In this document: positions 43,042 to 63,783 of the stretch, one piece after another
Position numbering within the stretch: position 1 is the stretch's first letter
How the letters are laid out: each line of letters opens with the position of its first letter
IMG/VR virus record: IMGVR_UViG_3300028887_000102
Span: 1-64,000 of that record
Direction: 5' to 3' (one strand)
DNA: 64,000 bases
Origin: a virus
Taxonomy: Duplodnaviria; Caudoviricetes
Position numbers and translations under genes: made by a program
The notes under the pieces: generated by a model
Seen by the model: the letters and a program-made list of their open reading frames with translations, nothing else
Database searches by the model: none
Told to the model about the DNA's origin: nothing

Positions 43042-43296
43042 CTAGTTCAACCAATCGGGCTTCGGGAATCTATCGGTGTAGGTAATTTCATCCCGGTCTT
43101 GAGTATCAATGTTGTGGGCATCATCCCAATATTTTAAAAGGTTTTCTTCTGCCGGCAGATAGCAGATGATGATGGCTTTCTTCATATCTCCGGTGTAGCC
43201 CGAAATCCAGTACGGCATCTGGATTGTCTTCAAGTCCACAAGGGGTCTTGGGTCTTCTGCGGAATTTGTATAGAAGCGATAGCGTTTGTATTTCAT
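43042..43296 (-). CDS. Small conserved-looking phage protein (D.RP...YW.SG...YWDDA...RFPKP.W)
   Basis: Motif pattern. Confidence 0.6.
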   Translation of the reverse strand: MKYKRYRFYTNSAEDPRPLVDLKTIQMPYWISGYTGDMKKAIIICYLPAEENLLKYWDDAHNIDTQDRDEITYTDRFPKPDWLN

Positions 43297-43724
43297 TTGT
43301 TTAATTCCTTTTTGTAGTGAGTTGCTATTTGTGTTAATCGTCTTTCTCTTTTATTGAGTCGCATTACTTTTGTCTGCATCTTCGTGTATGCTTTTAATGT
43401 CTCGCTTGGAACCGGATATGCTTCTCTATAAGAATCCATAAGCGATGGGTACTTTCTACGATAACTAGCACATTTTGAATCTAGTACCAACCAAGCTCGT
43501 TTAGTAATGTCTATTAAGTATAGGCATCTCTTGTACTTGTATCGTAAGAGAATCTTTTTGAGTTGTGCGAAAGCGGCATCCGCATCATTGCGAGTATAGT
43601 AATCGCATTCGTCAAGATGGCGAATATCTACATCCCCTGCAACCCTTTCGACTTGCTCACAAGACCAATAGATTCTTTCGGGTGTGTAGATTTCAAGTTT
43701 ATCGCAGAGCATTGGATTTTCCAT
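43293..43724 (-). CDS. Expanded paralog family member (YKYKRCL subtype)
   Basis: CDKLE..., Y.R.DADAA, RYKYKRCL. Confidence 0.65.
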   Translation of the reverse strand: MENPMLCDKLEIYTPERIYWSCEQVERVAGDVDIRHLDECDYYTRNDADAAFAQLKKILLRYKYKRCLYLIDITKRAWLVLDSKCASYRRKYPSLMDSYREAYPVPSETLKAYTKMQTKVMRLNKRERRLTQIATHYKKELNK

Positions 43725-44161
43725 TATTCGTAGTTCTTCGCTTTTTCCCTACACTTATGTTCAACGACACGCATCTTCTCTGCAAAGTCATAGCATTTCT
43801 TTGACATCTCCACATTGCCGTTGTGCAAGTGGGTCATAGATAGATTGTGATATTGATTAGACATATCCCTTGCACGGATTGCTCTTGTTATCCAGAGTGT
43901 GTGTTGCACTACATCTATCTTTTGTCTATAATGGAAAGCAATACCATACGCCATTTTTTCGGATTTATAATATCGCTCAAGTTGCGATACTAATGTGTGG
44001 TTGTCATCCACAAGTTCCTTGATGGCTTCATCCGCATCTTTCTTTGGATAGAACTCCCCGGTCACAACAACGATATTGTCATTGGATGGCTTATCGCTCT
44101 TGATTGATTCCGCTGGAACTTGGTATTGTGCCGTGATTGAATGTAATTCTTGGAATTTCAT
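43724..44161 (-). CDS. Expanded paralog family member (LW..RA subtype)
   Basis: YPKKDADEAIKEL, TLWITRAIRA, VEHKCREKAKNY. Confidence 0.7.
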   Translation of the reverse strand: MKFQELHSITAQYQVPAESIKSDKPSNDNIVVVTGEFYPKKDADEAIKELVDDNHTLVSQLERYYKSEKMAYGIAFHYRQKIDVVQHTLWITRAIRARDMSNQYHNLSMTHLHNGNVEMSKKCYDFAEKMRVVEHKCREKAKNYE

Positions 44162-44168
44162 AATGTAC

Positions 44169-44420
44169 CTACTTGTATGTTTCGGCTTTCTTATGGCAGA
44201 TGTCTTCTACCTTGTTGAACTTGTCTGCCCACTTGAAATTATCCTTGTATTCCAAGCGATGCATCCATACCCTAGACCAAGCATCCGCATTGCTTGCTCT
44301 AGTGAGAAACAAGGCGTGGTTCATAGTCTTAATTATTTCATCTACCTTTTCTGCCGGGTAGTAAAGTTTATCGCCATCGGGGGTGCTAATCGTGACCGGT
44401 TTCAAATCTTCAAAAATCAT
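44169..44420 (-). CDS. Expanded paralog family member
   Basis: YPAEKVDEII, ALFLTRASNA, KVEDICHKKAETY. Confidence 0.7.
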   Translation of the reverse strand: MIFEDLKPVTISTPDGDKLYYPAEKVDEIIKTMNHALFLTRASNADAWSRVWMHRLEYKDNFKWADKFNKVEDICHKKAETYK

Positions 44421-44569
44421 TTAGCCATCCTTTCGTAGCAATCTTTGCAGACCATAACAAGTTTGCCACGCTTTGTTTTAGTTATTATGGAGTTCTGGCG
44501 ATATGTAATGCTTTTGCACTTGTAGCATTTGATTTCGTTAGCCTTACGGCATCTTTCTTCAAATGTCAT
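44417..44569 (-). CDS. Small CxxC/CxxC zinc-finger protein, 50 aa
   Basis: Hand translation MTFEERCRKANEIKCYKC...VCKDCYERMAK; ATGA coupling. Confidence 0.6.
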   Translation of the reverse strand: MTFEERCRKANEIKCYKCKSITYRQNSIITKTKRGKLVMVCKDCYERMAK

Positions 44570-44577
44570 TATCTGTT

Positions 44578-44952
44578 TCATTTTTGTTCCTCCAATTTAT
44601 TCTCCCAATAGTTTTGTACCTTATCCCAGAACGCACAATGTTTTTCAATATATTCTTGTTTCCAAGTTCTATCCAAAGTATCGTAGTAGTTAAACCTCTG
44701 CCGGGCATATTCAATTCTCAAAAGACACAAAGCTCTATGGGCATCCGCTAATTTTGATTCTGCATAGTTCCTTTCGGAAAGGAACAGTTTTGCATGGTGC
44801 TCGTGTAGGAATGCTTGTGATTCGGCAGAATCCAGTTTGACAGTCAATTCCGAAATGGCTTCATCCACATCGCCCTTTCCATACATCTGCAATGTGATGG
44901 CAGCACCTTTTGGAACGATGGTTTCGGCTTTAAGTTTTTTGTACTTGTACAT
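44578..44952 (-). CDS. Expanded paralog family member
   Basis: YGKGDVDEAISEL, RALCLLR. Confidence 0.65.
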   Translation of the reverse strand: MYKYKKLKAETIVPKGAAITLQMYGKGDVDEAISELTVKLDSAESQAFLHEHHAKLFLSERNYAESKLADAHRALCLLRIEYARQRFNYYDTLDRTWKQEYIEKHCAFWDKVQNYWENKLEEQK

Positions 44953-44953
44953 A

Positions 44954-45364
44954 TTATAAATGCTCCAATTTACATTCACAAACAAATTCTACATTATCCC
45001 AAATGTCAATCCATTCGTTAATAGTTCTTTTGGTCTTGGATGCATTCGTGTAGATGCTACCATCCGTGATGCCGTTGATGTCATATTTGGTTTTACCATC
45101 ATCTTTGTAGAAAGCATCTCGCGTTGTCCATAACGATGCGGCTATCCTAGCAACTTTTGCTCTTGATTTCCATAGGGCATATTCTTTACTTTGGCAGATA
45201 CCGGCTAATTCGTCGATGACTGCATCCGTATCTTCTTTCGGGTACATCTCATAGACACCCCCATTGCATCCCCAATATTCCCCAGCAAACTTTTCGGATT
45301 CCAATTTGCTATGGGCATAGTCCACCAAGGATTGCTTGTCGCATTTGTTTATTCCTTTTTGCAT
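44954..45364 (-). CDS. Expanded paralog family member
   Basis: YPKEDTDAVIDEL, ALWKSRAKVA, WDNVEFVC. Confidence 0.7.
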   Translation of the reverse strand: MQKGINKCDKQSLVDYAHSKLESEKFAGEYWGCNGGVYEMYPKEDTDAVIDELAGICQSKEYALWKSRAKVARIAASLWTTRDAFYKDDGKTKYDINGITDGSIYTNASKTKRTINEWIDIWDNVEFVCECKLEHL

Positions 45365-45696
45365 AAATATGAATCCGCTTTATCCCTGCATAGCCGTTCA
45401 ACCTTGTTCCACTTTTGCTTGAGTTCTTCATATTCCTTGGCTTTTTGTAAATCGCCACGGAAGTATCTCCAACCATGTGCAAGAGTTCCGTTATAGCAAG
45501 ACATACTAAAAGCATTTTCGGCACGGACAATCCATATCGTTCGCTTGAGTTGCCGATTTTCGTCTTTCATTTCGGTAATGGCTTCATCTACCTGGGATTT
45601 CGGGTAGAAGTCTTCCACATCTTTGGATGCAAAGTTTTCGTTAATGTATCGGTTCAACCAATACACATCTTTTGCTTCAAGTTTATCGCATTTCAT
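45349..45696 (-). CDS. Expanded paralog family member
   Basis: MKCDKLE, YPKSQVDEAI, TIWIVRAENA, WNKVERLCRDKADSY. Confidence 0.7.
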   Translation of the reverse strand: MKCDKLEAKDVYWLNRYINENFASKDVEDFYPKSQVDEAITEMKDENRQLKRTIWIVRAENAFSMSCYNGTLAHGWRYFRGDLQKAKEYEELKQKWNKVERLCRDKADSYLCKKE

Positions 45697-46033
45697 TTTT
45701 GAGTTTCCCTGCCATTTTGAGCCATCGTTTGCTTCGTTCATAATACTTATCGGATTTTTCTCTCCATCGTTTTCTTGCCGCTTCTCTATTGCTTTCCGAT
45801 TCCATAGCATCTTCTTCATCTCTATCGGAATCATTGCTTACGGCTACCATTTCCATTCCATATTCCGCAGACAAGGAATGACAAATGGTTGCTTCTCGCA
45901 TACAGAACTTTATCTTGTATCGTAAAAGTTCTTGTTGCAGTTTAGCCACCGTTTTATCTACGATGTCCGCTGGGTATAAGGGGCCGGCGAAACCGAGCAT
46001 CCCACGATGTTCTTTTAATTCATCACCTAACAT
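45683..46033 (-). CDS. Expanded paralog family member (YK.K.C subtype)
   Basis: YPADIVDKTV, RYKIKFC. Confidence 0.6.
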   Translation of the reverse strand: MLGDELKEHRGMLGFAGPLYPADIVDKTVAKLQQELLRYKIKFCMREATICHSLSAEYGMEMVAVSNDSDRDEEDAMESESNREAARKRWREKSDKYYERSKRWLKMAGKLKNEMR

Positions 46034-46193
46034 TTTGAATCCTTTTGAGTTATTTGTGTTTCTTTTTGCCGAGATTTATTACTACAAGAATAACCAGAAC
46101 GCAAATAAGCCAAACTACACCATACTTGAGCATATTAAACTCCTTTAAAAATTTATGTATGTGTTCATCGTGATTATATACAATCGGACTAGG

Positions 46194-46667
46194 TTATTTT
46201 TTTCTGCAATGGTCGCAGAGTTCCGTGTGGTGCTTTCTAGGATATTCATTCGTAGCATCAATTTTTAGGTAGCGCTTGTTGCACATCGGGCATATCGGAT
46301 AGAGTGAACCACCGTGAGTCAATAAATAATTTCCAAAGGGTATCAAGGATGCAGATAAGTTTTTTGAGTAGCCCCCACCGGGCTTGAACCTAATCTCTCT
46401 CTTGGATGGCTTGTACTCGCATTCAATAGTGGTGTAGTATAACTGTTTGGTTTTTTTGTCTTTCCAACATTCTTGTATATAGGCATTCTGCCAATCGTTA
46501 GCATTTTTCCTAGCATCCACCCAATGAAACATAGATTCCCAAGTATGTGGGATGCTATCATTCATTTCAAATTCTTTCGCCTTTTCAAGAGCTTCTTCAA
46601 CGGAGTTCGCTTTAACCTGAATGACACACCTTGCTTGTGGTGTTATTTCAATATTGTATGTAGGCAT
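46194..46667 (-). CDS. Hypothetical protein with C-terminal CPMC/CDHC zinc ribbon
   Basis: Cys pairs. Confidence 0.6.
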   Translation of the reverse strand: MPTYNIEITPQARCVIQVKANSVEEALEKAKEFEMNDSIPHTWESMFHWVDARKNANDWQNAYIQECWKDKKTKQLYYTTIECEYKPSKREIRFKPGGGYSKNLSASLIPFGNYLLTHGGSLYPICPMCNKRYLKIDATNEYPRKHHTELCDHCRKK

Positions 46668-46668
46668 A

Positions 46669-47452: not shown

Positions 47453-47462
47453 ATAGGTCTCC

Positions 47463-47783: not shown

Positions 47784-47813
47784 AGCGGGTGTCCTTATGA
47801 TTATCCGCTAACC

Positions 47814-47842
47814 AATATAACTAAATATCACAAAGATGTCAA
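47814..47842 (-). promoter_or_regulatory. Early promoter copy 7 (leftward)
   Basis: Reverse complement TTGACA-17-TATATT. Confidence 0.85.
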
Positions 47843-47910
47843 GATATTTTTGTAAAAATATTTAATTAGACATTCCCGAAAAAAAAAATCAATTATTTTT
47901 ACGAGACTAC

Positions 47911-47939
47911 TTGACAACCCTTTGATATTTAGTTATATT
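47911..47939 (+). promoter_or_regulatory. Early promoter copy 8 (rightward, divergent from copy 7)
   Basis: TTGACA-17-TATATT. Confidence 0.85.
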
Positions 47940-47962
47940 CAACGATACATCATAATCAAACA

Positions 47963-49824: not shown

Positions 49825-50106
49825 ATGAAATATACCGTTATTCTACCACAACTCAAGGTATATGACTTGGCTGATTCCACCGACCATCCCGACGTGGTAT
49901 ATGGAAAAATTGAAGTTGATGCCGTTATCCGTGACTTGATTCTTGAAAAGGAATCGTTTCATCGCAGGGCTTTGGATGCCGAACGGCGATATTACCAGAC
50001 GATTAGCCAGATTGCTTCGGAAGAACTCAAAAAATTGGAAGATGAATCCACAACTATGGAAGCATCTCTTGATACTTTGAGTAATGTCTTGGGGGGTCGT
50101 GTATGA
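49825..50106 (+). CDS. Expanded paralog family member (A module only)
   Basis: QLKVYD, YGKIEVDAVIRDL. Confidence 0.6.
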   Translation: MKYTVILPQLKVYDLADSTDHPDVVYGKIEVDAVIRDLILEKESFHRRALDAERRYYQTISQIASEELKKLEDESTTMEASLDTLSNVLGGRV

Positions 50107-50495
50107 GTGATGCAGTCTATGACAAGTTGCGAATGGTCATCCAGACAAAAAGGGATATGGACAATCCCCTGCAACCTTATGGCGTGACGGTTCAATATAG
50201 TATTATCAACCCGGATGATACGGAGTTCCATTCCAGAATGGATGTTTCTGATGTTCGCGTGGTTTGTGATTACGAAATTGCTAAAGCCGTATTGGATGAA
50301 TCCGAACGGAAGTCCAAGAAGTTGTTGTGGATGTCTAGGGCTTTAAGGGCTTCACATATTTCTTGTCTTGCTTTTCAAGGTGAGTATATACCGTTGGATA
50401 ACTACGGAAATGAACTTGATTGGCGAATTATGTATCAAAAATGGAAAAAGGTAGAAGAATTATGTCTTAAAAAGGCAAGGGAGTATGATATATGA
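50103..50495 (+). CDS. Expanded paralog family member
   Basis: LLWMSRALRA, WKKVEELCLKKAREY. Confidence 0.7.
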   Translation: MSDAVYDKLRMVIQTKRDMDNPLQPYGVTVQYSIINPDDTEFHSRMDVSDVRVVCDYEIAKAVLDESERKSKKLLWMSRALRASHISCLAFQGEYIPLDNYGNELDWRIMYQKWKKVEELCLKKAREYDI

Positions 50496-50863
50496 TGACA
50501 TTGGCTCTTGATGAATATAAGGTGGTTAAAGGCAATGAGGGTTATATCATTGCTTGCAATTACGAAATGAAACGAGCTTACGATGCCGATGAAGCGGATA
50601 AGGAAATCGACCGCCTTATTTGTATGGCAGGGAATAATGCTAGGGGTTATCGTATTGCACGCAGGGCTTTGTGGCAATCCAGAGTTCGCAATGCCGAAAT
50701 TATGATGAAGCACTTGTCATTCCTTGTTGAATGCTTTAGGGATTCTAACATTACCACAGAAGCCGCCATTTATAATTCCAAGTTAAATAACTGGAAATGG
50801 GTTCACGATGCTTGTTTGAAAAAGTATGAAACTCTTTGTAAGGAAAAAGGCAATGCAGTATAA
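50492..50863 (+). CDS. Expanded paralog family member
   Basis: YDADEADKEIDRL, RALWQSRVRNA, WKWVHDACLKKY. Confidence 0.7.
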   Translation: MMTLALDEYKVVKGNEGYIIACNYEMKRAYDADEADKEIDRLICMAGNNARGYRIARRALWQSRVRNAEIMMKHLSFLVECFRDSNITTEAAIYNSKLNNWKWVHDACLKKYETLCKEKGNAV

Positions 50864-51123: not shown

Positions 51124-52448
51124 ACGAAATTGGCAAGAAATCCCACCCATCTTTAGTGTGTGGGATGAATTGTCCGTATTGAAACATATAGACTTTTAGA
51201 GAAAATACTTGTATTTCATTAAAAACTAATCTATATTATAGTTATGATGTTGAAGGCATATAAATATCGGATATACCCGACAAAGACTCAAGAAGTGCTT
51301 TTAGTTAAGCATTTCGGTTGCACCAGATACATCTATAATTATGGTCTTGAACGGAAAATAAAGTCTTACGCAGAAACAAAGAAAAGCCTTTCCAGATTCA
51401 CGATTCAATCGGATTTGCCGAAGTTGAAGAAAGCCGAAGAAACAAAGTGGCTTGCAGAAGTAAACTCACTTTCGCTACAAGTGGCGTTGCTTAATCTCGA
51501 TATGGCATTCACTAGGTTCTTCAAGGAAAAGAAAGGCTTCCCCAAGTTCAAATCCAAGCACGACCACAACCAATCATTTCAAGTTCCGCAGAATACAACA
51601 GTCGATTACGAATGTAAACGGGTGTATATTCCAAAATTCAAGGAAGGAATCAAGTGTAAGTTTGGCAGACAATTTAGCGGAAAGATTAAGACAAGTACAG
51701 TAAGTAGAACCCCAACAGGAAAGTATTACATATCCATTCTGGTAGAAACCAATGATACCATTCCTAGCAAAGCACCGATAGACGAGAACAAAGCGGTCGG
51801 TGTGGACTTGGGCATCAAGACGTTTGCTACCTTGAGCGATGGTACTGAAATACAGAACCCCAAGAACCTAAAGAAATCCTTGAAACGATTAAAACGGTTG
51901 CAAAGGTCTATTTCCCGAAAAATCAAAGGTAGCAACTCACGGAAGAACACCGTCAAGTTGCTTGCCCGACAATATGAGAAAGTGACCAATCGCAGAAAGG
52001 ATTTCTTGCACAAGACAAGCAAGTGGTTGATTGACCACTACGATACTATTTGCCTTGAAACGCTTTCTGCCAAGAATATGATGCGGAATCATAAACTTGC
52101 ACAAGCACTGTCCGATATAAGCATAGGCACGTTCAATGCCTATATGGACTACAAAGCGGAGTGGTATGGTAAGAACATAATCCGCATAGGTCGGTTCGAG
52201 CCATCTAGCAAGATGTGTTCTTGTGGTCACATATACAAGGAACTGACCCTAAAGGATAGGGTATGGACTTGTCCTTGTTGTGGTGCTATCAACAAAAGGG
52301 ATTTGTTGGCCGCTAACAACATAAAGAAGTTTGCATTTAAGCAAAACAATACGGCCCGGACGACCGGAATTTACGCCGTGGAAACAATGAACCCCACTAG
52401 GGGAGCAGCCACGGAAACCCACACATCTTTAGTGCGTGGGTAGTTCAT
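51124..52448 (+). mobile_element. IS200/IS605-family tnpB-only (IS1341-type) element
   Basis: Matching subterminal hairpins CCCACCCATCTTTAGTGTGTGGG and CCCACACATCTTTAGTGCGTGGG; TTAA target, TCAT right end; no tnpA. Confidence 0.8.
51244..52443 (+). CDS. tnpB: RNA-guided endonuclease TnpB
   Basis: KAYKYRIYP HTH; RuvC VGVDLG, ICLETL, RDLLAANNI; CSCG/CPCC zinc finger. Confidence 0.95.
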   Translation: MMLKAYKYRIYPTKTQEVLLVKHFGCTRYIYNYGLERKIKSYAETKKSLSRFTIQSDLPKLKKAEETKWLAEVNSLSLQVALLNLDMAFTRFFKEKKGFPKFKSKHDHNQSFQVPQNTTVDYECKRVYIPKFKEGIKCKFGRQFSGKIKTSTVSRTPTGKYYISILVETNDTIPSKAPIDENKAVGVDLGIKTFATLSDGTEIQNPKNLKKSLKRLKRLQRSISRKIKGSNSRKNTVKLLARQYEKVTNRRKDFLHKTSKWLIDHYDTICLETLSAKNMMRNHKLAQALSDISIGTFNAYMDYKAEWYGKNIIRIGRFEPSSKMCSCGHIYKELTLKDRVWTCPCCGAINKRDLLAANNIKKFAFKQNNTARTTGIYAVETMNPTRGAATETHTSLVRG

Positions 52449-52666: not shown

Positions 52667-53164
52667 ATGAAAATTGATGCATCCGCGTATCTGCCAGTAG
52701 AACTTGTGAAAAAGATTAGTAGTTTCTTCTTTACTTGGAGTGCTTGCAGGGGCATTGACCCTAACACCCCACTTGGAGAAATTGCCAAGCACGCTCATCT
52801 TCATTGGCAGAACTATGAGCATCGTATGTCCGAAATGCGACAAAATGTTCAAACCGTAATGTCCACCAATTCCTACTTGAGAGATGAAGTTAATTCGTTG
52901 AAGTCGAAGTTAAAGGATAGTGATGTACATTGCCATTATCTTGTGTACCGGCAGAAGTATAAGCGGTGTCTTGTGTACATTGAAAAGCATAGATTACAAG
53001 TTGAAAATGCTCAAGATGCAGTTCGGTTAATATCGTGTAGTTCTAATGCCTTTACGGAAGAAACATTTAGAAAGACTCTTGCTTATCATCAACGAAAGCG
53101 GGATAGGTACTTGAAACATTATAACAAGTGGCTTGAACTCTCTAGGTTTTTTAAGGAGATGTAA
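52667..53164 (+). CDS. Expanded paralog family member (QKYKRCL subtype)
   Basis: QKYKRCL, RYLKHYNKWLEL. Confidence 0.65.
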   Translation: MKIDASAYLPVELVKKISSFFFTWSACRGIDPNTPLGEIAKHAHLHWQNYEHRMSEMRQNVQTVMSTNSYLRDEVNSLKSKLKDSDVHCHYLVYRQKYKRCLVYIEKHRLQVENAQDAVRLISCSSNAFTEETFRKTLAYHQRKRDRYLKHYNKWLELSRFFKEM

Positions 53165-53165: not shown

Positions 53166-53378
53166 ATGGACACGGATGTTTGTATGCAAAAGTATAAGCG
53201 GTGTTTGGCACTTATTGAAGTGTACCGACTCCGTGCCAAGTTGATGGCAGGGCTTGCTAGGGGTACTAGGGGCTTTGAGTATAGCGATGATTGGCATAAT
53301 AAATCCAGACGATATATTCGCTACGCTATAAAGTGGCGAGATATATCACATAAAATCAAAGAATCAATGCATAGGTAG
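53166..53378 (+). CDS. Expanded paralog family member (QKYKRCL subtype)
   Basis: QKYKRCL, RYIRYAIKW. Confidence 0.65.
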   Translation: MDTDVCMQKYKRCLALIEVYRLRAKLMAGLARGTRGFEYSDDWHNKSRRYIRYAIKWRDISHKIKESMHR

Positions 53379-53657: not shown

Positions 53658-53798
53658 ATGGGTATCTGCGAATGTTGCAAGAAGCCATCATCCCATATTA
53701 TCAAGGTGGTAGCCCGCATCTATGAACTTGGAACTATTGATGTCCGAAAAGTTAAGGTTTGCCCAGAGTGTTATGTGTTGCATAAAATAAAGAAGTGA
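53658..53798 (+). CDS. Small zinc-finger protein (CECC...CPEC)
   Basis: Cys pairs. Confidence 0.55.
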   Translation: MGICECCKKPSSHIIKVVARIYELGTIDVRKVKVCPECYVLHKIKK

Positions 53799-53801: not shown

Positions 53802-54332
53802 ATGGAACGACAAGAATTGAAAGTATATGATGCCTATATCATGGAAGTAGATTTCCACCCAGACGATGCCCCCGTCAAGTTGGATGCTATTGTGTCTAGC
53901 AATAGTTCCATAGCGGAAAACGATTGGTCTGGCGAAGCCGCTTGTTTCGCGTGCTATAAGAAAGATGAAGCGGATGCGGAGATTGATTATTGGAAGCAAG
54001 AGAACCGAATATCCAGGAATCTAGCGAATATGGCTTATTCTCTGCAACAACAAGAGAAAGCCGACTTGCAGAAGACTAGGGTAGAACTCCGTGCAACCAA
54101 GATGGCATTGTGGCATTCTAGGGCTAACCGGGCTTTTGAAAAGATTCTATTGTTTACATCCTTGATTCGGGAATACAAAACTTATGTGTATATTGATGGT
54201 CTTGAGAAGAAATTAGGCGATGGCTATTCTAGTCAATTCCGAACACCCCACGAATGGGTTAAGATATTTGAGAGAGTTGAAAAGAAGTGCCGGGAAAAAG
54301 CGGAGATATACGATGACCGAGAAGATGGTTAA
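53802..54332 (+). CDS. Expanded paralog family member
   Basis: ELKVYD, YKKDEADAEI, ALWHSRANRA, RVEKKCREKAEIY. Confidence 0.7.
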   Translation: MERQELKVYDAYIMEVDFHPDDAPVKLDAIVSSNSSIAENDWSGEAACFACYKKDEADAEIDYWKQENRISRNLANMAYSLQQQEKADLQKTRVELRATKMALWHSRANRAFEKILLFTSLIREYKTYVYIDGLEKKLGDGYSSQFRTPHEWVKIFERVEKKCREKAEIYDDREDG

Positions 54333-54501
54333 AAGAGCTTTGTGGTTGGCTAGGGCAATCCGTGCTTGTGAGAAATCGGAGATTTTAAATGAACGGAGTC
54401 TTTTAGCCCTGCCGGAATATCGGCGTTATTGGCGGGATAAGTGTAGGGCTTGGATTCGTGTTGAAGAACTATGCCGTAAGAAAGCGGATTCGTACCTATG
54501 A
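54313..54501 (+). CDS. Expanded paralog family member (minimal B+C)
   Basis: KRALWLARAIRA, WIRVEELCRKKADSY. Confidence 0.7.
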   Translation: MTEKMVKRALWLARAIRACEKSEILNERSLLALPEYRRYWRDKCRAWIRVEELCRKKADSYL

Positions 54502-56890: not shown

Positions 56891-57138
56891 GTTCTTATGA
56901 TGACATTTTGCATTGGGTTGTAAACTATTTTGTTGATGAAACTATGACTAGCCCCGAATGTCTAGGCAAGAATACTACCTTATCTGAATTAGGTCGTGAT
57001 GCGTTTGTGGATAGGGTATTGCTGGTGGTAGCCATAGAAAGTGAGTACGATGTGATTATTAACGATGACGAACGAGATTCGTGGGAAATATTAGACGATG
57101 TAGCAAAAACAATTTTCAAAAAGGAACATAAGGTATGA
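56887..57138 (+). CDS. Acyl-carrier-protein-like protein lacking the phosphopantetheine serine
   Basis: LGRDAFVDRVLLVVAIESEYDVIINDDE aligns with ACP [27 protein letters not shown]. Confidence 0.7.
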   Translation: MSSYDDILHWVVNYFVDETMTSPECLGKNTTLSELGRDAFVDRVLLVVAIESEYDVIINDDERDSWEILDDVAKTIFKKEHKV

Positions 57139-58337
57139 TAGAAATTAAAGGTAAATTCAACGTGGCAAAGGTTTTTACCGATAACCTTGAATCCGAAGCC
57201 TATAAGCAAATCTTGAACTTGATGAACCAAAAATTTGCGGAGGGTTCAAAGTTTGCTATTATGCCCGATGCCCATGCAGGGGTTGGGTGTGTTATCGGTT
57301 TGACGATGAAACTTGTAGATAAGGTTGTTCCAAACCTTGTAGGCGTGGACATTGGATGCGGTATGTTGGTCTTGAAGATTGACAAGTCGTTTAAAATGGA
57401 TTTGCCGAAAATGGATAAGATTTGGCATCAAGAAATTCCATCGGGTATGAACCATCGTACCAAGAAGCATCGTTTCGCAGATACCGTGCCACTCGAAGAT
57501 TTGGTCACACCGGTTAATGCCGATAAGCTCCGTTTGTCGGTGGGTTCTCTTGGTAGTGGAAACCATTTCGGAGAAGTGGATGTGGATGACGATGGCAACT
57601 ATTACATTGTAATCCATTCGGGGTCCAGACATCTTGGTATTGAAGTTTGCAAGTTCCACCAGAACCGAGCGATTGAATACCATCGGGGCAATCGTGACAT
57701 TGAAAAGGACATCATCTTGCGATGCAAAGCCGAGGGCAGGGTCAAGGATATTGAAAAGGAACTCCGTGATTTCCACGAAGCGAAGACCCCGATTCCTAAT
57801 GAGTTGGCATACCTTGAGGGTTCGTATATGCAAGATTACTTGGCAGATATGCGAATCGCTCAAGATTTCGCCATCAAGAATCGTGAAGCGATGATGCAAG
57901 TTGTCATTGATTCTATGGGTATTAAGAACCACCATATCCTTGGTAAATTCTGCACTATCCATAACTACATTGACTTGGATGCTATGGTTCTTCGCAAGGG
58001 TTCTATTTCCCTGCAACAAGACCAAATGGCGATTATCCCGATGAATATGCGCGATGGCTCTTTGATTGTCCGTGGAAAGGGAAACCCCGAATGGAATTTC
58101 TCTGGTCCGCATGGAGCAGGGCGTTTGATGTCTCGTTCAAAGGCAAAGGAAACTTTGACGATGGAAGATTTCAAGTCTTCAATGTCCGGCATCTACACGA
58201 CTTGTGTAAGCACCAAGACTCTTGACGAATCCCCAATGGCTTATAAGCCTATGGATGAAATCGTTGAGAACATCCGGGACTCCGCAGACATTGTACGGAC
58301 TATCAAGCCCATCTATAACTTTAAGGCAGAAGAATAA
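57135..58337 (+). CDS. rtcB: RtcB RNA ligase
   Basis: MPDAHAG.GC.IG, VGVDIGCG, LGSGNHF, IHSGSR, H.IHNY, HGAGR, LDESP.AYK. Confidence 0.97.
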   Translation: MIEIKGKFNVAKVFTDNLESEAYKQILNLMNQKFAEGSKFAIMPDAHAGVGCVIGLTMKLVDKVVPNLVGVDIGCGMLVLKIDKSFKMDLPKMDKIWHQEIPSGMNHRTKKHRFADTVPLEDLVTPVNADKLRLSVGSLGSGNHFGEVDVDDDGNYYIVIHSGSRHLGIEVCKFHQNRAIEYHRGNRDIEKDIILRCKAEGRVKDIEKELRDFHEAKTPIPNELAYLEGSYMQDYLADMRIAQDFAIKNREAMMQVVIDSMGIKNHHILGKFCTIHNYIDLDAMVLRKGSISLQQDQMAIIPMNMRDGSLIVRGKGNPEWNFSGPHGAGRLMSRSKAKETLTMEDFKSSMSGIYTTCVSTKTLDESPMAYKPMDEIVENIRDSADIVRTIKPIYNFKAEE

Positions 58338-58392: not shown

Positions 58393-58428
58393 ACTAGCGA
58401 GTATAACACACAAGGAGATGTTTTTTTT

Positions 58429-58542: not shown

Positions 58543-58549
58543 GTTCCCT

Positions 58550-59828: not shown

Positions 59829-59837
59829 GAGATACCT

Positions 59838-60113: not shown

Positions 60114-60547
60114 AGTACAATATAGAACATCCCGAATATGCAATGAATTTCAAGTTCCTATCCAAGTATCGGAAGGTCAAAGTATCTAATCGGTTTTATT
60201 ATTGGAACAAGAATGCATATAAACGAGAATGCCCTTTTTGCCATAAGACACGCAGGGCTGGGTATATCTTCGGATGCCCAGATTGCTACATCTATCGTGA
60301 GATTGCTTTTCAACTGCGGGGTCTTTCCGAATATATGGCGAAGCAAGGTATTTCGCTTAAATGGGATATGTCGAATAAGAATGTTGCGATTCAAACGACG
60401 GTGCTTACAACCAACGGACTCCAATACACGGCTACGGACACTTTAACGGTCAAAGAAATAAAGGAACATACACGAACGAAACCACTTGAAGAATTGTTCG
60501 CAAAGGTAATTGCAAACCAATGTGGTTTCTCATTTAAAGGAGACTAA
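60110..60547 (+). CDS. Zinc-finger protein (CPFC...CPDC)
   Basis: Cys pairs. Confidence 0.55.
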   Translation: MKYNIEHPEYAMNFKFLSKYRKVKVSNRFYYWNKNAYKRECPFCHKTRRAGYIFGCPDCYIYREIAFQLRGLSEYMAKQGISLKWDMSNKNVAIQTTVLTTNGLQYTATDTLTVKEIKEHTRTKPLEELFAKVIANQCGFSFKGD

Positions 60548-60550
60548 TAT

Positions 60551-60871
60551 ATGCCCGATGAAAATAGTAAATGGACTTTTGATGCTCTTGCCAATAATTA
60601 TCCTAATCCTAGTTTTTGGGGGCGTCACAAGTGGTACAATGCAGATGATGTTCAATGCTGGATTTTGCATTTGAAAGAAGTCCATGATAAGGAAATGAAT
60701 GAACTCCGTGAACAAATGCAGAATGAATCTAAAAAGATTCAAATGGATGTTTTTACTGCAATCCAGACAATAGAAGACCAAATCTCGTCTGGGATTCAAC
60801 CGGTCATTAGAAATTTAATTAACACATATCTTAACAATATCAAAGAAGGTATTAACAATGCCGACAAATAA
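60551..60871 (+). CDS. Hypothetical coiled-coil protein
   Basis: AAGGAG RBS. Confidence 0.55.
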   Translation: MPDENSKWTFDALANNYPNPSFWGRHKWYNADDVQCWILHLKEVHDKEMNELREQMQNESKKIQMDVFTAIQTIEDQISSGIQPVIRNLINTYLNNIKEGINNADK

Positions 60872-61760
60872 TAAAGTAGTTGTTCAACTTTTCTCCGGTG
60901 TTCACGGCAACGAACATTGTGCCGTACTTTCGAGCATCCGTGCAAAGGAAATCATCAAGGATGACTCTATGGACATTCGCCTTATGGATGGGGTTAATGT
61001 TCCCGGTTTGCGTGACAATGTTCGTGAAGTAGCCGACCACTCCAAGGATGTAATTACAGACCTTAATCGTAAGTTTACGATTTATAAGGAACCGGATAAG
61101 ATTGATGTCATCACAAAACATATTGAAGACACCATTGAACTTGCAGACATCGTTATTGATATTCACAATTCCCCCGCTTGTATGAATTGTGTTCTTATTT
61201 CTAACAACGGATATGCCCCTGCATATATCCAGCATTGCATTAGCCATAATCTTTCGTACCTTTTATGGGAATCCGATACGGACACCATCAAGAAGTATTC
61301 TCAAGATATGAACAAGGTGGGCATTACGATTGAGCTTGGTGGTATGGGTGGCTCCGTGCATCAAAAGCATCTTATTACCGAGCAGACTCAATTCATCATT
61401 GATGTAATTGAATCTTTCCAGGGTATGTCAAAGGATGTTCTCAAGAAAGTCTTTACACCAACAAAGCCGGGTTCGTTTGAACCTAGTTATCGGTTCTTTG
61501 ATTCCAGTTTTTTGTGGCAACCGATTTTCGCACATTCCGAAGGTGTCATTGAATACCTTTATGACGTGGGCGAGTCTATTGATAAGGGTGCGGTTATTTG
61601 CCGTATTCATAGCAAGAAAGATGGTCACGCACCTTATACCGAAGTGGTTTCCCCTTGTACCGGTAAACTCGCAGAAATTTCGGATGCCTTGTATGTAAGG
61701 GCTGCCGATTGCTTCTGCCATATCCAACCGGATATTCGTTGTAAGGATAAAGAATGTTAG
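60858..61760 (+). CDS. Succinylglutamate desuccinylase/aspartoacylase (AstE/AspA, M14-like) metallohydrolase
   Basis: GVHGNE, DLNR.F, IDIHN, ITIELG, C-terminal biotinyl-like barrel (V.SP..G). Confidence 0.8.
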   Translation: MPTNNKVVVQLFSGVHGNEHCAVLSSIRAKEIIKDDSMDIRLMDGVNVPGLRDNVREVADHSKDVITDLNRKFTIYKEPDKIDVITKHIEDTIELADIVIDIHNSPACMNCVLISNNGYAPAYIQHCISHNLSYLLWESDTDTIKKYSQDMNKVGITIELGGMGGSVHQKHLITEQTQFIIDVIESFQGMSKDVLKKVFTPTKPGSFEPSYRFFDSSFLWQPIFAHSEGVIEYLYDVGESIDKGAVICRIHSKKDGHAPYTEVVSPCTGKLAEISDALYVRAADCFCHIQPDIRCKDKEC

Positions 61761-61993
61761 AGCATCCTATCACTGTTGTATATAAGCATCCTTTTTGTAC
61801 AATGGATTCATTTGACCATGGAAATAGTGGCAAATACATAATCTTAATGAAAGATTGTTATATCCATGAAGTCACATATCATTGCTACGATGACGTGTTC
61901 TTCTTAATGGATGGCAAGACAACTATACAACTTAAAGATGTTTATGGCTGGGCTAAAGATAGTTTAGTCATTCAACCTAGAGACTATTTATAG
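61754..61993 (+). CDS. Small hypothetical protein
   Basis: Coupled ORF. Confidence 0.5.
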   Translation: MLEHPITVVYKHPFCTMDSFDHGNSGKYIILMKDCYIHEVTYHCYDDVFFLMDGKTTIQLKDVYGWAKDSLVIQPRDYL

Positions 61994-62002
61994 GAGATAA
62001 TT

Positions 62003-62461
62003 ATGTCGTGGACTTGGAAAGTAGATGGCTATGAAGTTGAATGCCGACAAGTGACTAAACCACAAGTATTCGACCCACCGAAGATGATGCTAGTTAATAC
62101 TCGCGGTAAACTTGTAATGAAAAAGGTGTATGCTATTCTTGCACCAACCGAACGAGCGAATTTTCCGGTAGTGTGCGATGATGACCATTATGCCATTTGT
62201 TGTGAAATCCCGAAGCCCCGCAGGGCTACTCATCGTGAACTTTCTGAATGGTGTGCCAAGGGCAATGGTCAATGGAAGCAATCGGGCGATACTTATTGGA
62301 GCGCCTATAATTATGATGCAAACATCAAAGAAGATGAACCGATTCGTGATGACACGATGATTCGTAAATGGGGAACATCCGAATGGATTGAACCCGATGC
62401 TATTGCGATGGGGCTTCCGAATCCGTATGGTGGGAGGGCTATTCGTGAAAGCGATACCTAA
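62003..62461 (+). CDS. Hypothetical protein with KPQVFDPP N-domain (paralog of 48798)
   Basis: Shared motif. Confidence 0.6.
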   Translation: MSWTWKVDGYEVECRQVTKPQVFDPPKMMLVNTRGKLVMKKVYAILAPTERANFPVVCDDDHYAICCEIPKPRRATHRELSEWCAKGNGQWKQSGDTYWSAYNYDANIKEDEPIRDDTMIRKWGTSEWIEPDAIAMGLPNPYGGRAIRESDT

Positions 62462-62714
62462 AGGAAAGGTGTATGACTGCATTTACTATCGTGGCGATAA
62501 CTCTTTAGAAGTTATTCGCTTTTGTGGTGGAAAGGCTCATACCCCAAGTTCGTATAATACTACTTGGCCCCCCATCTATATTACTGCAACCAATGGTTGT
62601 TGCTATACGGCACCGGTAGGTTCGTATATTGTTAGAGATGGGGATTCTCTTGTGGTGTACGATGAGCAATCCTTTGAACAACAGTTTGACCTTTATCAAG
62701 GTGGTGCAAATTGA
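62445..62714 (+). CDS. IYY.G.N...GSYIV family small phage protein
   Basis: Paralog of 59838; GTG start. Confidence 0.55.
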   Translation: MKAIPKGKVYDCIYYRGDNSLEVIRFCGGKAHTPSSYNTTWPPIYITATNGCCYTAPVGSYIVRDGDSLVVYDEQSFEQQFDLYQGGAN

Positions 62715-62854
62715 GATGCGATAAATGTAATGCCCCGTTATATTGTGGTAGTTGCAGGGAAGCTCCGGGTGGTTTACCCTTGTTTGTCTGCGATACTTGC
62801 TACAATAAGTTAAAAGCCGAACTTGAGAAGAAACCCGAAAAGGAATCTAAATGA
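62711..62854 (+). CDS. Small zinc-finger protein (CDKC, CGSC, CDTC)
   Basis: Hand translation from TTG 62711. Confidence 0.5.
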   Translation: MRCDKCNAPLYCGSCREAPGGLPLFVCDTCYNKLKAELEKKPEKESK

Positions 62855-63240
62855 TAAAATTACCATTGCCTTGCTTTGAGGCATCCGTTCATATAACCAT
62901 TGATGAACGATGTGGCTGGTTCAATAAAGAAGTGTATCTCAAGGAACACGTGGATGCTACTCTGGATGAACTATTAGCATTGAATGAGTTTTACCGAAAG
63001 AATATGAGTCGCTTCGGTACATTAGCGGCTAGGCGATTCTTTGCCATCTATACGGCTAATCGTTCCTTGTGGTTCACTAGAATGGAACGAGCCAAGGCAA
63101 TGGCAGCCATTGATAATTTTGAATCTTACAAGTGTAAACATCCCTGCGGTGTTTGGAACGGAAAGGATTATGATGATTGGGCGGTGGCTTGGAAAAATGT
63201 TGAAACCTTATGCTTAAAACAAATGGAGAAATGGAAATGA
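62851..63240 (+). CDS. Expanded paralog family member
   Basis: YLKEHVDATLDEL, RSLWFTRMERA, WKNVETLCLKQ. Confidence 0.7.
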   Translation: MIKLPLPCFEASVHITIDERCGWFNKEVYLKEHVDATLDELLALNEFYRKNMSRFGTLAARRFFAIYTANRSLWFTRMERAKAMAAIDNFESYKCKHPCGVWNGKDYDDWAVAWKNVETLCLKQMEKWK

Positions 63241-63542
63241 AGCATATTTATGAAAGTTTGAAAGATTATGCCATCCATCACGGAAACGAAACCTATTATC
63301 CTAAAGATGTAGTTTACGCGGCTATCAATGAACTAATTGCCATCAATCATCGTCAAGGTGGTGTTATTTCTAGTCTCAAGGATTTGTTCTCACGATTCAC
63401 ATACAATACAACTCTCCGCAGAATCCAGTATGTGCGGAATCCCCCACATCATAAGATGTTCTCTCCGGATTGTATTCCTTTCTTCAAAAGAGATGGCTAT
63501 AAAATCTTTAAACAACTTGAAGACGATAAGCACGGTAAGTAG
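63237..63542 (+). CDS. Expanded paralog family member (A module)
   Basis: ESLKDY, YYPKDVVYAAINEL. Confidence 0.55.
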   Translation: MKHIYESLKDYAIHHGNETYYPKDVVYAAINELIAINHRQGGVISSLKDLFSRFTYNTTLRRIQYVRNPPHHKMFSPDCIPFFKRDGYKIFKQLEDDKHGK

Positions 63543-63543
63543 T

Positions 63544-63783
63544 ATGGATGACGCAGAATTTTGGAAAGAACAATATCATACTTGCCGAAAGATAATCGAC
63601 GAACTTGAATCCGAACGAAAGTATCTAAAGAAAGCGTTGTGGTTATCTAGGGCAGAACGAGCTAGACTAGAGATTCATAGGGCTTACCCCTATGAATGGT
63701 CTATTGAGAGTTGTAAGTGCTGGGAGAAAGCCGTACAACTTTTTACCAAGAAAGCAAGGGATGTTGATAATGGCGAAAGATAG
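63544..63783 (+). CDS. Expanded paralog family member
   Basis: KKALWLSRAERA, WEKAVQLFTKKA. Confidence 0.65.
   Translation: MDDAEFWKEQYHTCRKIIDELESERKYLKKALWLSRAERARLEIHRAYPYEWSIESCKCWEKAVQLFTKKARDVDNGER

What the first reader, a model, noticed from the sequence alone, without database searches (positions are those of the whole stretch)
43293..63783. 17-member modular paralog family in divergent early arrays
Seen: small helical ORFs built from shared modules: A, ([CD]D.L[KE])...Y.K.[DE][AV]D..I.EL; B, ALW..RA..A, or B', [RQ]KYKRCL; C, W..VE..C..KA..Y. Members: 43293, 43724, 44169, 44578, 44954, 45349, 45683 (minus strand) and 49825, 50103, 50492, 52667, 53166, 53802, 54313, 62851, 63237, 63544 (plus strand). 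Inter-module sequences differ greatly in length and content. They are mostly translationally coupled, and most lie in the two arrays diverging from promoters 7/8. Inference: a conserved scaffold presenting variable inserts, such as an accordion-type anti-defence family or hetero-oligomeric host-targeting complexes. I do not recognise a characterised family.
Basis: partly seen in the sequence, partly recalled or inferred. Interest (0 to 1): 0.78.

Follow-up and report, generated by a model that had tools for sequence, protein, structure and literature searches.

The report
Expanded phage helical-hairpin protein families
A large uncultured cattle-gut phage carries at least 17 diverged copies of two related, uncharacterised families of small helical-hairpin proteins. 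In other phages these occur as one ordered gene pair. They swap internal segments at conserved anchor motifs, which fits host-interaction or counter-defence proteins, but no function has been shown.

Summary
Profiles built only from unrelated metagenomic proteins recover all 17 ORFs.

They are two families, not one:
- T1, 11 genes: module A, then ALW..RA..A, then W..VE..C..KA..Y.
- T2, 4 genes: module A, then KYKRCL, then W..RWLELAEKFKE.
- Two further genes have module A only.
- Two more members lie beyond the window in the same record.

Only module A is demonstrably homologous between T1 and T2. Both types are predicted with confidence to be long helical hairpins.

No Pfam, PHROG, PADLOC, solved-structure or cultured-phage relative was found. 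Metagenomes hold hundreds of T1 clusters and more than a thousand T2 clusters, all small proteins.

New findings:
- In smaller, integrase-carrying phages T1 and T2 form an ordered, often overlapping T1→T2 pair (17 of 27 loci).
- Variable segments are shuffled between members. Near-identical relatives of this phage differ by block replacement bounded by the anchors, by gene replacement and by paralog fusion.
- In three loci known anti-defence sponge genes (Sequestin, Acb2/Tad1-like) lie within 1 kb of the pair.

The paralogs are 20-40% identical, so this is an old, diverged set and not a recent accordion. Function is inferred, not shown. The scan had noted this family on the same genome in another window, but not on other DNA.

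The parts
43724..44161 (-). T1 member, 145 aa (modules A, long V2, B, C)
   Evidence: External-only T1 HMM E 2e-22; leave-one-out E 2.9e-8
44169..44420 (-). T1 member, 83 aa (A directly followed by B; the L034 ortholog lacks A)
   Evidence: External-only T1 HMM E 2e-11; L034 ortholog of 65 aa
44578..44952 (-). T1 member, 124 aa; its V2 block (about 44760-44855) is replaced in the 98%-identical relative L004
   Evidence: T1 HMM E 2e-11; 64 mismatches in 44700-44899 against about 2 per 100 nt elsewhere
44954..45364 (-). T1 member, 136 aa (long V3 loop)
   Evidence: T1 HMM E 3e-17
45349..45696 (-). T1 member, 115 aa from the MKCDKLE start; modelled by AlphaFold2
   Evidence: T1 HMM E 1e-20; AF2 hairpin H33-80/H83-108, mean pLDDT 86.8; L034 ortholog called as 115 aa
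50103..50495 (+). T1 member, 130 aa, atypical N-terminus; replaced by an unrelated 63-aa gene in relative L004
   Evidence: T1 HMM E 6e-14; replacement seen
50492..50863 (+). T1 member, 123 aa
   Evidence: T1 HMM E 5e-6; leave-one-out E 4.1e-8
53802..54332 (+). T1 member, 176 aa
   Evidence: T1 HMM E 2e-22
54313..54501 (+). Short T1 member, 62 aa (B-C only), overlapping the end of 53802; in relative L034 its B-C half is fused to the N-part of the 53802 gene
   Evidence: T1 HMM E 3e-12; chimera P0002 and L034 10001-10471
62851..63240 (+). T1 member, 129 aa
   Evidence: T1 HMM E 5e-15
63544..63783 (+). Short, weakest T1 member, 79 aa (B and degenerate C)
   Evidence: T1 HMM E 1e-4; leave-one-out E 1.8e-3
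49825..50106 (+). Module-A-only protein, 93 aa (N-module plus an unrelated coiled coil)
   Evidence: N-module HMM E 3.7e-5, not in training; T1 HMM E 1e-3, positions 6-68 only
63237..63542 (+). Module-A-only protein, 101 aa; truncated to 42 aa in L034 at the edge of a roughly 14-kb indel
   Evidence: N-module HMM E 4.4e-5; L034 comparison
43293..43724 (-). T2 member, 143 aa (module A, KYKRCL, C')
   Evidence: External-only T2 HMM E 1e-11; N-module HMM E 4.2e-7
45683..46033 (-). T2 member, 116 aa; modelled by AlphaFold2
   Evidence: T2 HMM E 7e-5; AF2 hairpin H22-67/H73-115, mean pLDDT 86.1
52667..53164 (+). T2 member, 165 aa; a 123-nt block between KYKRCL and C' (52977-53101) is diverged in another metagenome
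   Evidence: T2 HMM E 1e-6; run X6 contig shows 'skips 123, same length, diverged'
53166..53378 (+). Short T2 member, 70 aa (B'-C' only), 1 nt after the 52667 gene; absent in L034
   Evidence: T2 HMM E 7e-8; absence in L034
47814..47842 (-). Sigma-70-like promoter heading the minus-strand array
   Evidence: TTGACA-17-TATATT, 11 of 12; one of 9 copies of TTGACA-N7-GATATTTAGTTATATT, 0 expected by chance
47911..47939 (+). Sigma-70-like promoter heading the plus-strand array
42999..43025 (+). Strong hairpin terminator at the far end of the minus-strand array
   Evidence: 12-bp stem with 7 GC pairs, followed by a T run

Best explanation
The 17 ORFs belong to two related, uncharacterised families of small phage accessory proteins.

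Architecture, shown or predicted with confidence:
- Each protein starts with a short N-terminal module: M-K/S-C-D/E-E-L-K, a variable stretch V1, then Y.K.E[VA]D..I..L.
- One long helix follows, running through a variable coiled-coil segment (V2) into a conserved helix. That helix is LKRALWLARAERA in T1 and KYKRCLAMA in T2.
- A variable loop (V3) follows, then a conserved return helix. That helix is W..VE.KCRAKAEEYK in T1 and W..RWLELAEKFKE in T2.
- The conserved residues lie on one face of each arm, so they form the hairpin core.

Inferred:
- Isolated hairpins of this kind normally pair into four-helix bundles.
- Other phages keep one T1 gene directly followed by one T2 gene, so the working unit is probably a T1-T2 hetero-oligomer or mixed oligomers.
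- V1, V2 and V3 are the exposed, specificity-giving parts.
- New combinations arise by recombination at the conserved anchors.

This roughly 215-kb phage has accumulated at least 19 old, diverged versions in tightly packed operons behind host-type promoters.

Most likely role, inferred only: binders or inhibitors of changing host targets, or of rival-element targets, that is, host takeover or counter-defence.
For: - All 17 ORFs are recovered by external-only HMMs.
- Family size: 406 T1 representative clusters at E <= 1e-3, all 62-201 aa; at least 1397 T2 clusters.
- AF2 hairpins have mean pLDDT of about 86 for both types.
- The N-module is homologous between T1 and T2 (hhalign probability 85%, E 6e-6).
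- It is also joined to a third kind of C-terminus in L012, L015 and L022.
- The T1->T2 order holds in 13 of 21 T1-seeded loci and 4 of 6 T2-seeded loci. Start and stop coincide or overlap (1-4 nt) in L019, L021, L023, L040, L041 and L042.
- Mosaicism: about 210 protein pairs are at least 60% identical in one variable segment and at most 30% in another, for example P0025/P0054 (V3 88%, V1 18%) and P0011/P0058 (V2 98%, V3 100%, V1 19%).
- In the 98%-identical relative L004, a roughly 95-nt block of the 44578 gene is replaced exactly between anchors A and B.
- Also in L004, the 50103 gene is replaced by an unrelated gene.
- In L034 the 53802 and 54313 genes are fused at anchor B, and 53166 is absent.
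- Run X6 shows a diverged 123-nt block in V3 of the 52667 gene.
- Context: recombination, replication and DNA-modification genes and an integrase in the smaller phages.
- Anti-defence sponges near the pair: Sequestin starts 16 nt after T2 in L040. It is an anti-Thoeris sponge according to bioRxiv 10.1101/2025.07.12.664507. An Acb2/Tad1-hairpin gene lies 0.6-0.8 kb downstream in L023 and L030 and is fused to T2 in P0220.
Against: - No experiment, multimer model or expression data supports oligomerisation, timing or any target.
- The sponge neighbours occur in only 3 of about 27 loci, and the Acb2 match is below Pfam's cut-off (23.2 against 27 bits).
- Family genes are not more diverged than neighbouring small genes between this phage and L034 (median 67.5% against 69.6% identity, p = 0.45), so there is no sign of exceptional diversifying selection on whole genes.
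- The conserved basic residues in both arms would also suit nucleic-acid binding.
- The T1 and T2 C-terminal halves are not detectably homologous, so the shared fold could be convergence on a very common motif.
- The promoter motif also occurs in the structural region, so 'early' is unproven.
Confidence: 0.4

Rival explanations
1. The proteins are nucleic-acid-binding regulators. Helical-hairpin dimers, like the plasmid RNA-binding protein Rop, would use the conserved Lys/Arg-rich faces of helices B and C to bind RNA or DNA and tune phage or host gene expression. The variable segments would set sequence or partner specificity.
For: - Conserved basic residues in both arms: LKRALWLARAERA and KCRAKAEEYK in T1; KYKRC and KFKE.K in T2.
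- T2 members here are basic, pI 9.3-10.
- The hairpin fold matches a Rop variant at Z 8.2 among many other hairpins.
- The genes sit among replication and recombination genes in the smaller phages.
Against: - Z of about 8-10 is background for helical hairpins (note).
- No HTH, RHH or zinc motif is present.
- T1 members range from pI 5.2 to 8.6.
- The invariant residues (L, W, A, A, C, A) are mainly core-forming.
- Nothing explains why a regulator would need at least 19 diverged copies.
Confidence: 0.2
2. The shared N-module is a DivIVA/GpsB-like dimeric cap on a coiled coil. The proteins would target the membrane or the cell-wall and division machinery of the host.
For: - The full T1 profile has S. 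aureus GpsB N-domain constructs as its top PDB-sequence hits (E 0.025-0.036). The alignment covers both ELK...I and Y...EVDA.I.
- Pfam DivIVA (PF05103) hits the module-A ORF at record 80455-80568 with 19 bits, E 1.6e-4.
- The long helix starts at the (E/D)VD motif in both AF2 models.
Against: - A profile of the N-module alone does not find GpsB or DivIVA above noise (E 1.2-5.8, coiled-coil part only).
- None of 26 N-module fragments hits PF05103.
- None of 85 full proteins hits PF05103 at E <= 0.01.
- The PF05103 score is below its 28-bit cut-off.
- No conserved aromatic-basic loop pair is seen in the consensus.
Confidence: 0.08
3. The T1-T2 pair is a two-gene addiction or exclusion module, such as a toxin-antitoxin or superinfection-exclusion pair. 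The expansion in this phage would be a collection of such modules.
For: It is a conserved, ordered, overlapping pair of small genes that is widely mobile and mosaic, and it occurs on integrase-carrying phages.
Against: - The pair lies inside long same-strand operons with recombination and replication genes, not as a separately expressed moron.
- No toxin-like domain is present, and both partners have the same simple fold and share an N-module.
- In this phage T1 (11 genes) and T2 (4 genes) are not paired one to one.
- PADLOC gives only scattered noise hits.
Confidence: 0.07
4. The genes have no specific adaptive role. They would be fast-turnover filler ORFs whose conserved ends simply promote recombination and spread, so that they persist as near-neutral or selfish cassettes.
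For: - Presence/absence, fusion and block-replacement differences occur between near-identical phages.
- Breakpoints lie at the conserved anchors.
- Divergence is the same as for neighbouring accessory genes.
Against: - The same residues are conserved at the protein level across hundreds to thousands of clusters at 20-40% identity, with open reading frames maintained and a confident fold.
- The T1->T2 order is conserved across unrelated phage backbones.
Confidence: 0.1

Closest known systems
WXG100 / EsxA-EsxB (ESAT-6/CFP-10) pairs
   Same: - Proteins of about 100 aa that are single helical hairpins.
- Two diverged paralogs are encoded side by side.
- For Esx the pair is known to form a 1:1 four-helix bundle.
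- Weak Foldseek rows to EsxA and CFP-10/ESAT-6.
   Different: - No W-x-G turn motif and no sequence similarity.
- No type VII secretion genes nearby.
- These are phage-encoded and carry an extra N-terminal module.
- The heterodimer is only inferred here.
Small oligomeric phage anti-defence proteins (Sequestin, Acb2/Tad1 sponges)
   Same: - Short phage proteins (about 60-150 aa) in accessory regions.
- They lie directly next to T2, or within 1 kb of the pair, in three loci.
- Sequestin is described as a homo-oligomeric sponge (bioRxiv 10.1101/2025.07.12.664507).
   Different: - No sequence match of T1 or T2 to these families.
- The fold is a plain hairpin with no predicted ligand pocket.
- The resemblance rests on neighbourhood only.
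Rop (ColE1 RNA one modulator)
   Same: Helical hairpin that dimerises into a four-helix bundle; structural match Z 8.2 to a lengthened Rop variant.
   Different: - The arms here are about twice as long.
- There are large variable insertions and an N-terminal module.
- No sequence similarity.
- That Z value is background for helical proteins.
DivIVA/GpsB N-terminal domain (PF05103)
   Same: The motif pattern L..(D/E)I ... (G)Y...EVD..(I/L)..(I/L) is followed by a coiled coil; marginal hits.
   Different: - Below every curated threshold.
- Not reproduced with the N-module alone.
- The C-terminal hairpin has no counterpart in DivIVA.
Poxvirus-type gene accordions and multigene families of large viruses
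   Same: - Many copies of one family in one viral genome.
- Copy content differs between close relatives.
- A partial tandem duplicate or fusion is seen at 53802/54313 and at 52667/53166.
   Different: - Copies are old (20-40% identity), not recent amplifications.
- Individual copies resemble single-copy genes of other phages in particular segments.

Membership tests
Any Pfam-A / PHROG / PADLOC family | Match of members to a library model above noise, shared by many members | tested here: not met
   - The 17 window proteins have no consistent hit.
- 85 metagenomic T1 members give only scattered coiled-coil noise, at most 2 members per family.
DivIVA/GpsB domain (PF05103) | Score over the PF05103 gathering threshold (28 bits) | tested here: not met
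   - The only match is the ORF at record 80455-80568, 19 bits.
- 0 of 26 N-module fragments hit it.
- 0 of 85 full proteins hit it at E <= 0.01.
DivIVA/GpsB domain (PF05103) | Sequence-profile similarity to solved DivIVA-domain proteins | tested here: inconclusive
   The full T1 profile gives S. aureus GpsB at E 0.025. The N-module-only profile gives GpsB at E 1.2-5.8, on the coiled coil only.
DivIVA/GpsB domain (PF05103) | Dimeric N-terminal cap with crossed loops on a parallel coiled coil | not testable with these tools
   Only monomer prediction is available, and the N-terminal 20-30 residues have pLDDT 55-69.
WXG100 (EsxA/EsxB) | Helical hairpin of about 100 aa | tested here: met
   AF2: H33-80/H83-108 for T1 and H22-67/H73-115 for T2.
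WXG100 (EsxA/EsxB) | W-x-G motif in the hairpin turn | tested here: not met
   The turn region (V3) is the most variable part and has no conserved WxG.
WXG100 (EsxA/EsxB) | Adjacent paralog pair forming a heterodimer | tested here: inconclusive
   Adjacency of T1 and T2 is met in 17 of 27 loci. Heterodimer formation could not be tested.
ESCRT-III / PspA / Vipp1 | Alpha1-alpha2 hairpin followed by helices alpha3-alpha5 | tested here: not met
   Best VIA rows (Z 8.7-10.3) align only the hairpin. The proteins end with the second arm.
Gene accordion (recent tandem amplification) | Near-identical tandem copies | tested here: not met
   Paralogs are 19-40% identical, and their variable segments are at most 35% identical.
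Gene accordion (recent tandem amplification) | Copy content differs between close relatives | tested here: met
   - 50103 is replaced in L004.
- 53166 is absent and 53802/54313 are fused in L034.
Diversity-generating retroelement target | Variable region differing mainly at adenine-templated positions, with a reverse transcriptase nearby | tested here: not met
   The replaced block in the 44578 gene shows all substitution types at all codon positions. No RT was noticed among the genes examined in the 80.6-kb record.

The most novel reading that the evidence does not exclude
T1 and T2 form hetero-oligomeric four-helix bundles. These would act as a combinatorial binder platform with one fixed core and three exchangeable surface cassettes (V1, V2, V3), reshuffled by recombination at conserved anchor motifs. 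Phages would use the platform to neutralise a changing set of host immune proteins, and this large phage would carry a ready-made panel of about 20 specificities. That would be a new class of modular phage counter-defence proteins, and a rare case of cassette-based variation in non-structural phage proteins.
Probability: 0.15. Interest if true: 0.85.

Novelty: new variant of a known kind. Interest (0 to 1): 0.6.

Why it matters
- These are two large protein families with no entry in Pfam or PHROGs and no cultured representative. T1 has hundreds and T2 more than a thousand sequence clusters, and they are common in ruminant-gut phages.
- They come with three testable features: a conserved ordered gene pair, a confidently predicted simple fold, and clear segment shuffling at fixed anchor motifs.
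- If the variable segments are target-binding surfaces, the family would be a natural modular binder system and a new source of host-takeover or anti-defence functions.
- The proximity to known sponge genes gives a concrete place to start.
- Even if the function is regulatory, the family explains a sizeable share of the 'dark' small genes in this phage: 17 small genes, about 5.8 kb of coding sequence, within the 20-kb stretch.

Tried and rejected
- **Family libraries.** Pfam, PHROGs and PADLOC scans of the window members and of 85 external members gave nothing consistent.
- **Fold searches.** Foldseek against PDB and BFVD gave no match at E <= 1e-3. VIA-align wide gave only generic hairpins at Z 8-10.
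- **Cultured phages.** tblastn of T1 (P0015, P0038), T2 (P0175) and the module-A ORF at the record's end against 50,697 GenBank phage records gave no match.
- **Fusions.** A search for longer fused forms (337-2000 aa) found none, which the tool itself calls weak evidence. One 230-aa protein, P0220, is T2 followed by an Acb2/Tad1-hairpin region.
- **DivIVA/GpsB lead.** It was not reproduced with the N-module alone.
- **DUF1192.** Hits on 2 of 26 N-fragments were treated as coiled-coil noise.
- **T1 and T2 C-terminal halves.** hhalign found no significant similarity.
- **Faster evolution of family genes than of neighbours.** Not seen.
- **DGR-type variation.** Rejected.
- **Host assignment.**
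  - The genome-collection scan gave two Kiritimatiellia MAG contigs and one spurious Pseudomonas hit.
  - Only those same 2 of 151 Kiritimatiellia genomes carry T2.
  - No tRNAs are present in the window.
  - The host remains unknown.
- **Expression.** No RNA holder was listed. X19, flagged as possible RNA, is probably DNA and covers only fragments.
- **Literature.** Searches with the motifs and with general terms found nothing on this family.
- **ESM Atlas.** Only unnamed viral clusters below 0.9.
- **IMG/VR pattern scans.** The tighter A4 worked.

Full report
**Setting**

- The window is bases 1-64000 of an 80,594-bp linear IMG/VR virus record that CheckV rates as 37% complete.
- A major head protein and a tail sheath were recognised at 9332-10981 and 23004-25286. 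Earlier notes of this scan call it a roughly 215-kb T4-like phage; I did not re-test that.
- Near-identical DNA occurs in contigs of bovine-gut and other gut metagenomes from at least 11 studies.
- The finding covers a region of small, tightly packed genes on both sides of a divergent intergenic region at 47784-47962.

**Is the family real?**

- The 17 ORFs are there.
- All-against-all BLASTP links a core of B/C-type proteins, and separately links four KYKRCL-type proteins.
- Leave-one-out HMMs against all 904 six-frame ORFs of the record recover 10 of 11 core members at E <= 2e-7, and the 63544 gene at 1.8e-3.
- The four KYKRCL proteins recover each other at 3e-4 to 3e-3, each as the best non-training hit.
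- A profile of the 11 core members, run against 1.84 billion representative proteins, found 406 clusters at E <= 1e-3 and 54 at <= 1e-10. All listed hits are 62-201 aa and most match end to end.
- A profile of the KYKRCL type found at least 1397 clusters at 90% identity.
- HMMs built only from those external proteins recover all 17 window ORFs. E-values run from 2e-22 to 5e-3, and the weakest are the two module-A-only proteins.

**What the family looks like**

- T1 consensus from 143 sequences: MKCDELK, V1, Y.K.EVDAAIAELK, V2, LKRALWLARAERA, V3, W..W..VE.KCRAKAEEYK.
- T2 consensus from 134 sequences: MSELKA, V1, YLKSEADKVIA, V2, KYKRCLAMA.WC, V3, W..RWLELAEKFKE.K.
- Profile-profile comparison shows that the N-terminal module is homologous between the two types (probability 85%, E 6e-6).
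- The C-terminal halves are not detectably related (probability 5%).
- The N-module also occurs on a third kind of C-terminus in other phages (L012, L015, L022). In the window it occurs on 49825 and 63237, which have no B or C.

In the window:

| Class | Genes |
|---|---|
| T1 | 43724, 44169, 44578, 44954, 45349, 50103, 50492, 53802, 54313, 62851, 63544 |
| T2 | 43293, 45683, 52667, 53166 |
| N-module only | 49825, 63237 |

Beyond the window, the record holds another T2 (80142-80441) and another N-module ORF cut by the contig end.

**Fold**

- AlphaFold2 with these alignments gives the same picture for a T1 (45349 gene, mean pLDDT 86.8) and a T2 (45683 gene, mean pLDDT 86.1).
- The first 20-30 residues have low confidence.
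- A long helix then starts at the (E/D)VD motif, followed by a turn and a return helix: H33-80/H83-108 for T1 and H22-67/H73-115 for T2.
- The near-invariant residues sit at i, i+1, i+4, i+5, i+8 in B (L, W, R, A, A). In C they sit at i, i+3, i+4, i+7, i+10, i+11 (W, V, E, C, K, A). Each set lies on one helical face, so I read them as the hairpin core.
- Structure searches return only generic hairpins: ESCRT-III, PspA/Vipp1, chemoreceptors, histidine-kinase DHp, Rop and EsxA. Their scores are background for helical models.

**Known families**

- None was found in Pfam, PHROGs or PADLOC, among PDB sequences, or in 50,697 GenBank phage records.
- One lead appeared. The full T1 profile has S. aureus GpsB (DivIVA domain) as its top PDB hit at E 0.025. 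Pfam DivIVA touches the N-module ORF at the record's end with 19 bits.
- A profile of the N-module alone does not reproduce the GpsB hit, and none of 26 N-module fragments hits DivIVA.
- I keep this as a weak rival explanation.

**Context elsewhere**

- A pattern scan of IMG/VR gave 22 loci on contigs of 8-67 kb.
- Their neighbours include RecT, PAPS-reductase-domain proteins, DNA methylases, RtcB, a radical SAM protein and tyrosine integrases. T2-seeded contigs add YqaJ, SSB and a DUF5906 protein.
- So in smaller, often integrase-carrying phages the genes sit in the non-structural accessory part of a long same-strand operon.
- There a T1 gene is usually followed directly by a T2 gene. This holds in 13 of 21 informative T1-seeded loci and 4 of 6 T2-seeded loci. 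Stop and start coincide or overlap (1-4 nt) in L019, L021, L023, L040, L041 and L042.
- This conserved order is the strongest hint that the two types work together.
- In L040 the gene that starts 16 nt after T2 is a Sequestin (PF21825), a family shown to sequester the Thoeris signal 3'cADPR (bioRxiv 10.1101/2025.07.12.664507).
- In L023 and L030 a gene matching the Acb2/Tad1 hairpin domain lies 0.6-0.8 kb downstream. In one metagenomic protein (P0220) it is fused to T2. The Acb2 match is below Pfam's cut-off, and these are 3 of about 27 loci.
- I count this as neighbourhood support only.

**Dynamics**

- Across the external proteins, about 210 pairs are at least 60% identical in one of V1, V2 or V3 and at most 30% in another.
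- The representatives were clustered at 50% identity, so pairs that are alike throughout are under-represented. The mosaic pairs themselves are real.
- The same V1 cassette (ERIYWAVEQVER..GD.D) occurs in T1 (P0046) and in T2 (L019, P0250 and the window's 43293 gene).

Close relatives show the process directly:

- L004 is 98% identical over 15 kb. Even so, a roughly 95-nt block of the 44578 gene is unalignable. It has the same length and is bounded exactly by the codons of anchor A (VDEAISE) and the approach to anchor B.
- The substitutions in that block are of all types and fall at all codon positions, so this is allele replacement and not retroelement-type mutagenesis.
- In L004 the 50103 gene is replaced by an unrelated 63-aa gene.
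- In the more distant relative L034, the N-part of the 53802 gene is joined at anchor B to the B-C part of the 54313 gene.
- Also in L034, 53166 is absent, the 44169 ortholog lacks module A, and the 43293 ortholog has a different N-terminus.
- Both 'A-less' short genes of the window (54313 and 53166) lie directly after a full-length gene of the same type. That looks like partial tandem duplication, or its reversal by recombination between anchors.
- A contig of another study shows a 123-nt diverged block of equal length in V3 of the 52667 gene.
- Against a simple arms-race reading, whole-gene identity between the window and L034 is the same for family genes (median 67.5%) and neighbouring small genes (69.6%; p = 0.45).
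- The window's paralogs are old: 19-40% identical overall, and at most 35% in the variable segments.
- This is an accumulated, diverged set and not a recent accordion.

**Expression signals**

- The two best sigma-70-like sites of the region are the divergent pair at 47814-47842 (-) and 47911-47939 (+).
- They belong to nine copies of TTGACA-N7-GATATTTAGTTATATT in the window, with none expected by chance.
- Six of the nine copies lie in the structural half, so the motif does not by itself mark early genes.
- Fourteen of the 17 genes start -20 to +9 nt from the preceding stop, and several have AAGGAG-like sites upstream.
- No RNA data were available.

**Interpretation**

- Shown: two related families, their motifs, their abundance, the T1->T2 pairing, the mosaicism and the strain-level block replacement.
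- Predicted with good confidence: the hairpin fold.
- Inferred: oligomerisation into helical bundles, T1-T2 hetero-association, exposure of V1-V3 as specificity surfaces, and a host-takeover or counter-defence role.
- I put about 0.4 on that overall reading. The rest is spread over nucleic-acid-binding regulators (0.2), near-neutral recombining filler (0.1), a DivIVA-like division or membrane role (0.08) and an addiction or exclusion pair (0.07).

**Novelty**

- No described family matches, and no paper with the motifs was found.
- The general kind, multi-copy variable accessory gene families in large viruses, is known.
- The particular architecture, the ordered pair and the anchor-bounded cassette exchange in small non-structural phage proteins are new variants of that kind.
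- The scan had already noted this family on the same genome in an overlapping window (e1-5851534), but not on other DNA.

Noticed in passing
window 196, 2540, 15599, 19518, 31286, 37480, 47814(-), 47911, 58364: There are nine copies of an extended promoter-like motif, TTGACA-N7-GATATTTAGTTATATT, with 0 expected by chance. It occurs in both the structural and the accessory halves, and 60-130-nt flanks are also repeated between sites.
   Followed up: partly
window 51124-52448: The TnpB (OrfB_IS605-type) element is absent at exactly this point in the 98%-identical relative L004 and in a contig of run X6 (joint 51123>52449). The flanking ORF is continuous there (89-96 aa gene in L004 and L034).
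   Followed up: partly
window 50110-50479 vs L004: A whole T1 gene is replaced by an unrelated 63-aa gene in an otherwise 98%-identical phage.
   Followed up: yes
window about 63360 to record about 77260: Relative L034 jumps from a truncated 42-aa ortholog of the 63237 gene to the ortholog of record 77261-77521. About 14 kb present here is therefore missing there, or was inserted here.
   Followed up: no
window 44417-44581 (-) and 53658-53798 (+): Small CxxC...CxxC zinc-ribbon ORFs (54 and 46 aa, basic) sit inside both arrays directly next to T1 genes and are conserved in L034.
   Followed up: no
L040 4327-4602; L023 1715-2098; L030 9417-9797: Known or candidate anti-defence sponge genes (Sequestin PF21825; Acb2/Tad1-hairpin-like) lie within 1 kb downstream of T1-T2 pairs in other phages.
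   Followed up: partly
window 57135-58337: This 400-aa ORF is 93.5% identical to the L034 ortholog that carries Pfam RtcB, so it is probably an RtcB RNA ligase. An RtcB also lies near T1-T2 genes in L011.
   Followed up: no
L035 (229-kb ENA contig): Another very large contig carries T1 and T2 genes and at least three TnpB copies within 20 kb. It may be a second large phage lineage with an expanded set.
   Followed up: no
T2 alignment A7; T1 alignment A3: Conserved cysteines: T2 has two on one helix face (KRC......C, both >= 90% conserved). T1 has one in helix C (>= 90%) plus the consensus Cys3. A shared metal or disulphide site in an oligomer is conceivable, but several window members lack them.
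   Followed up: no
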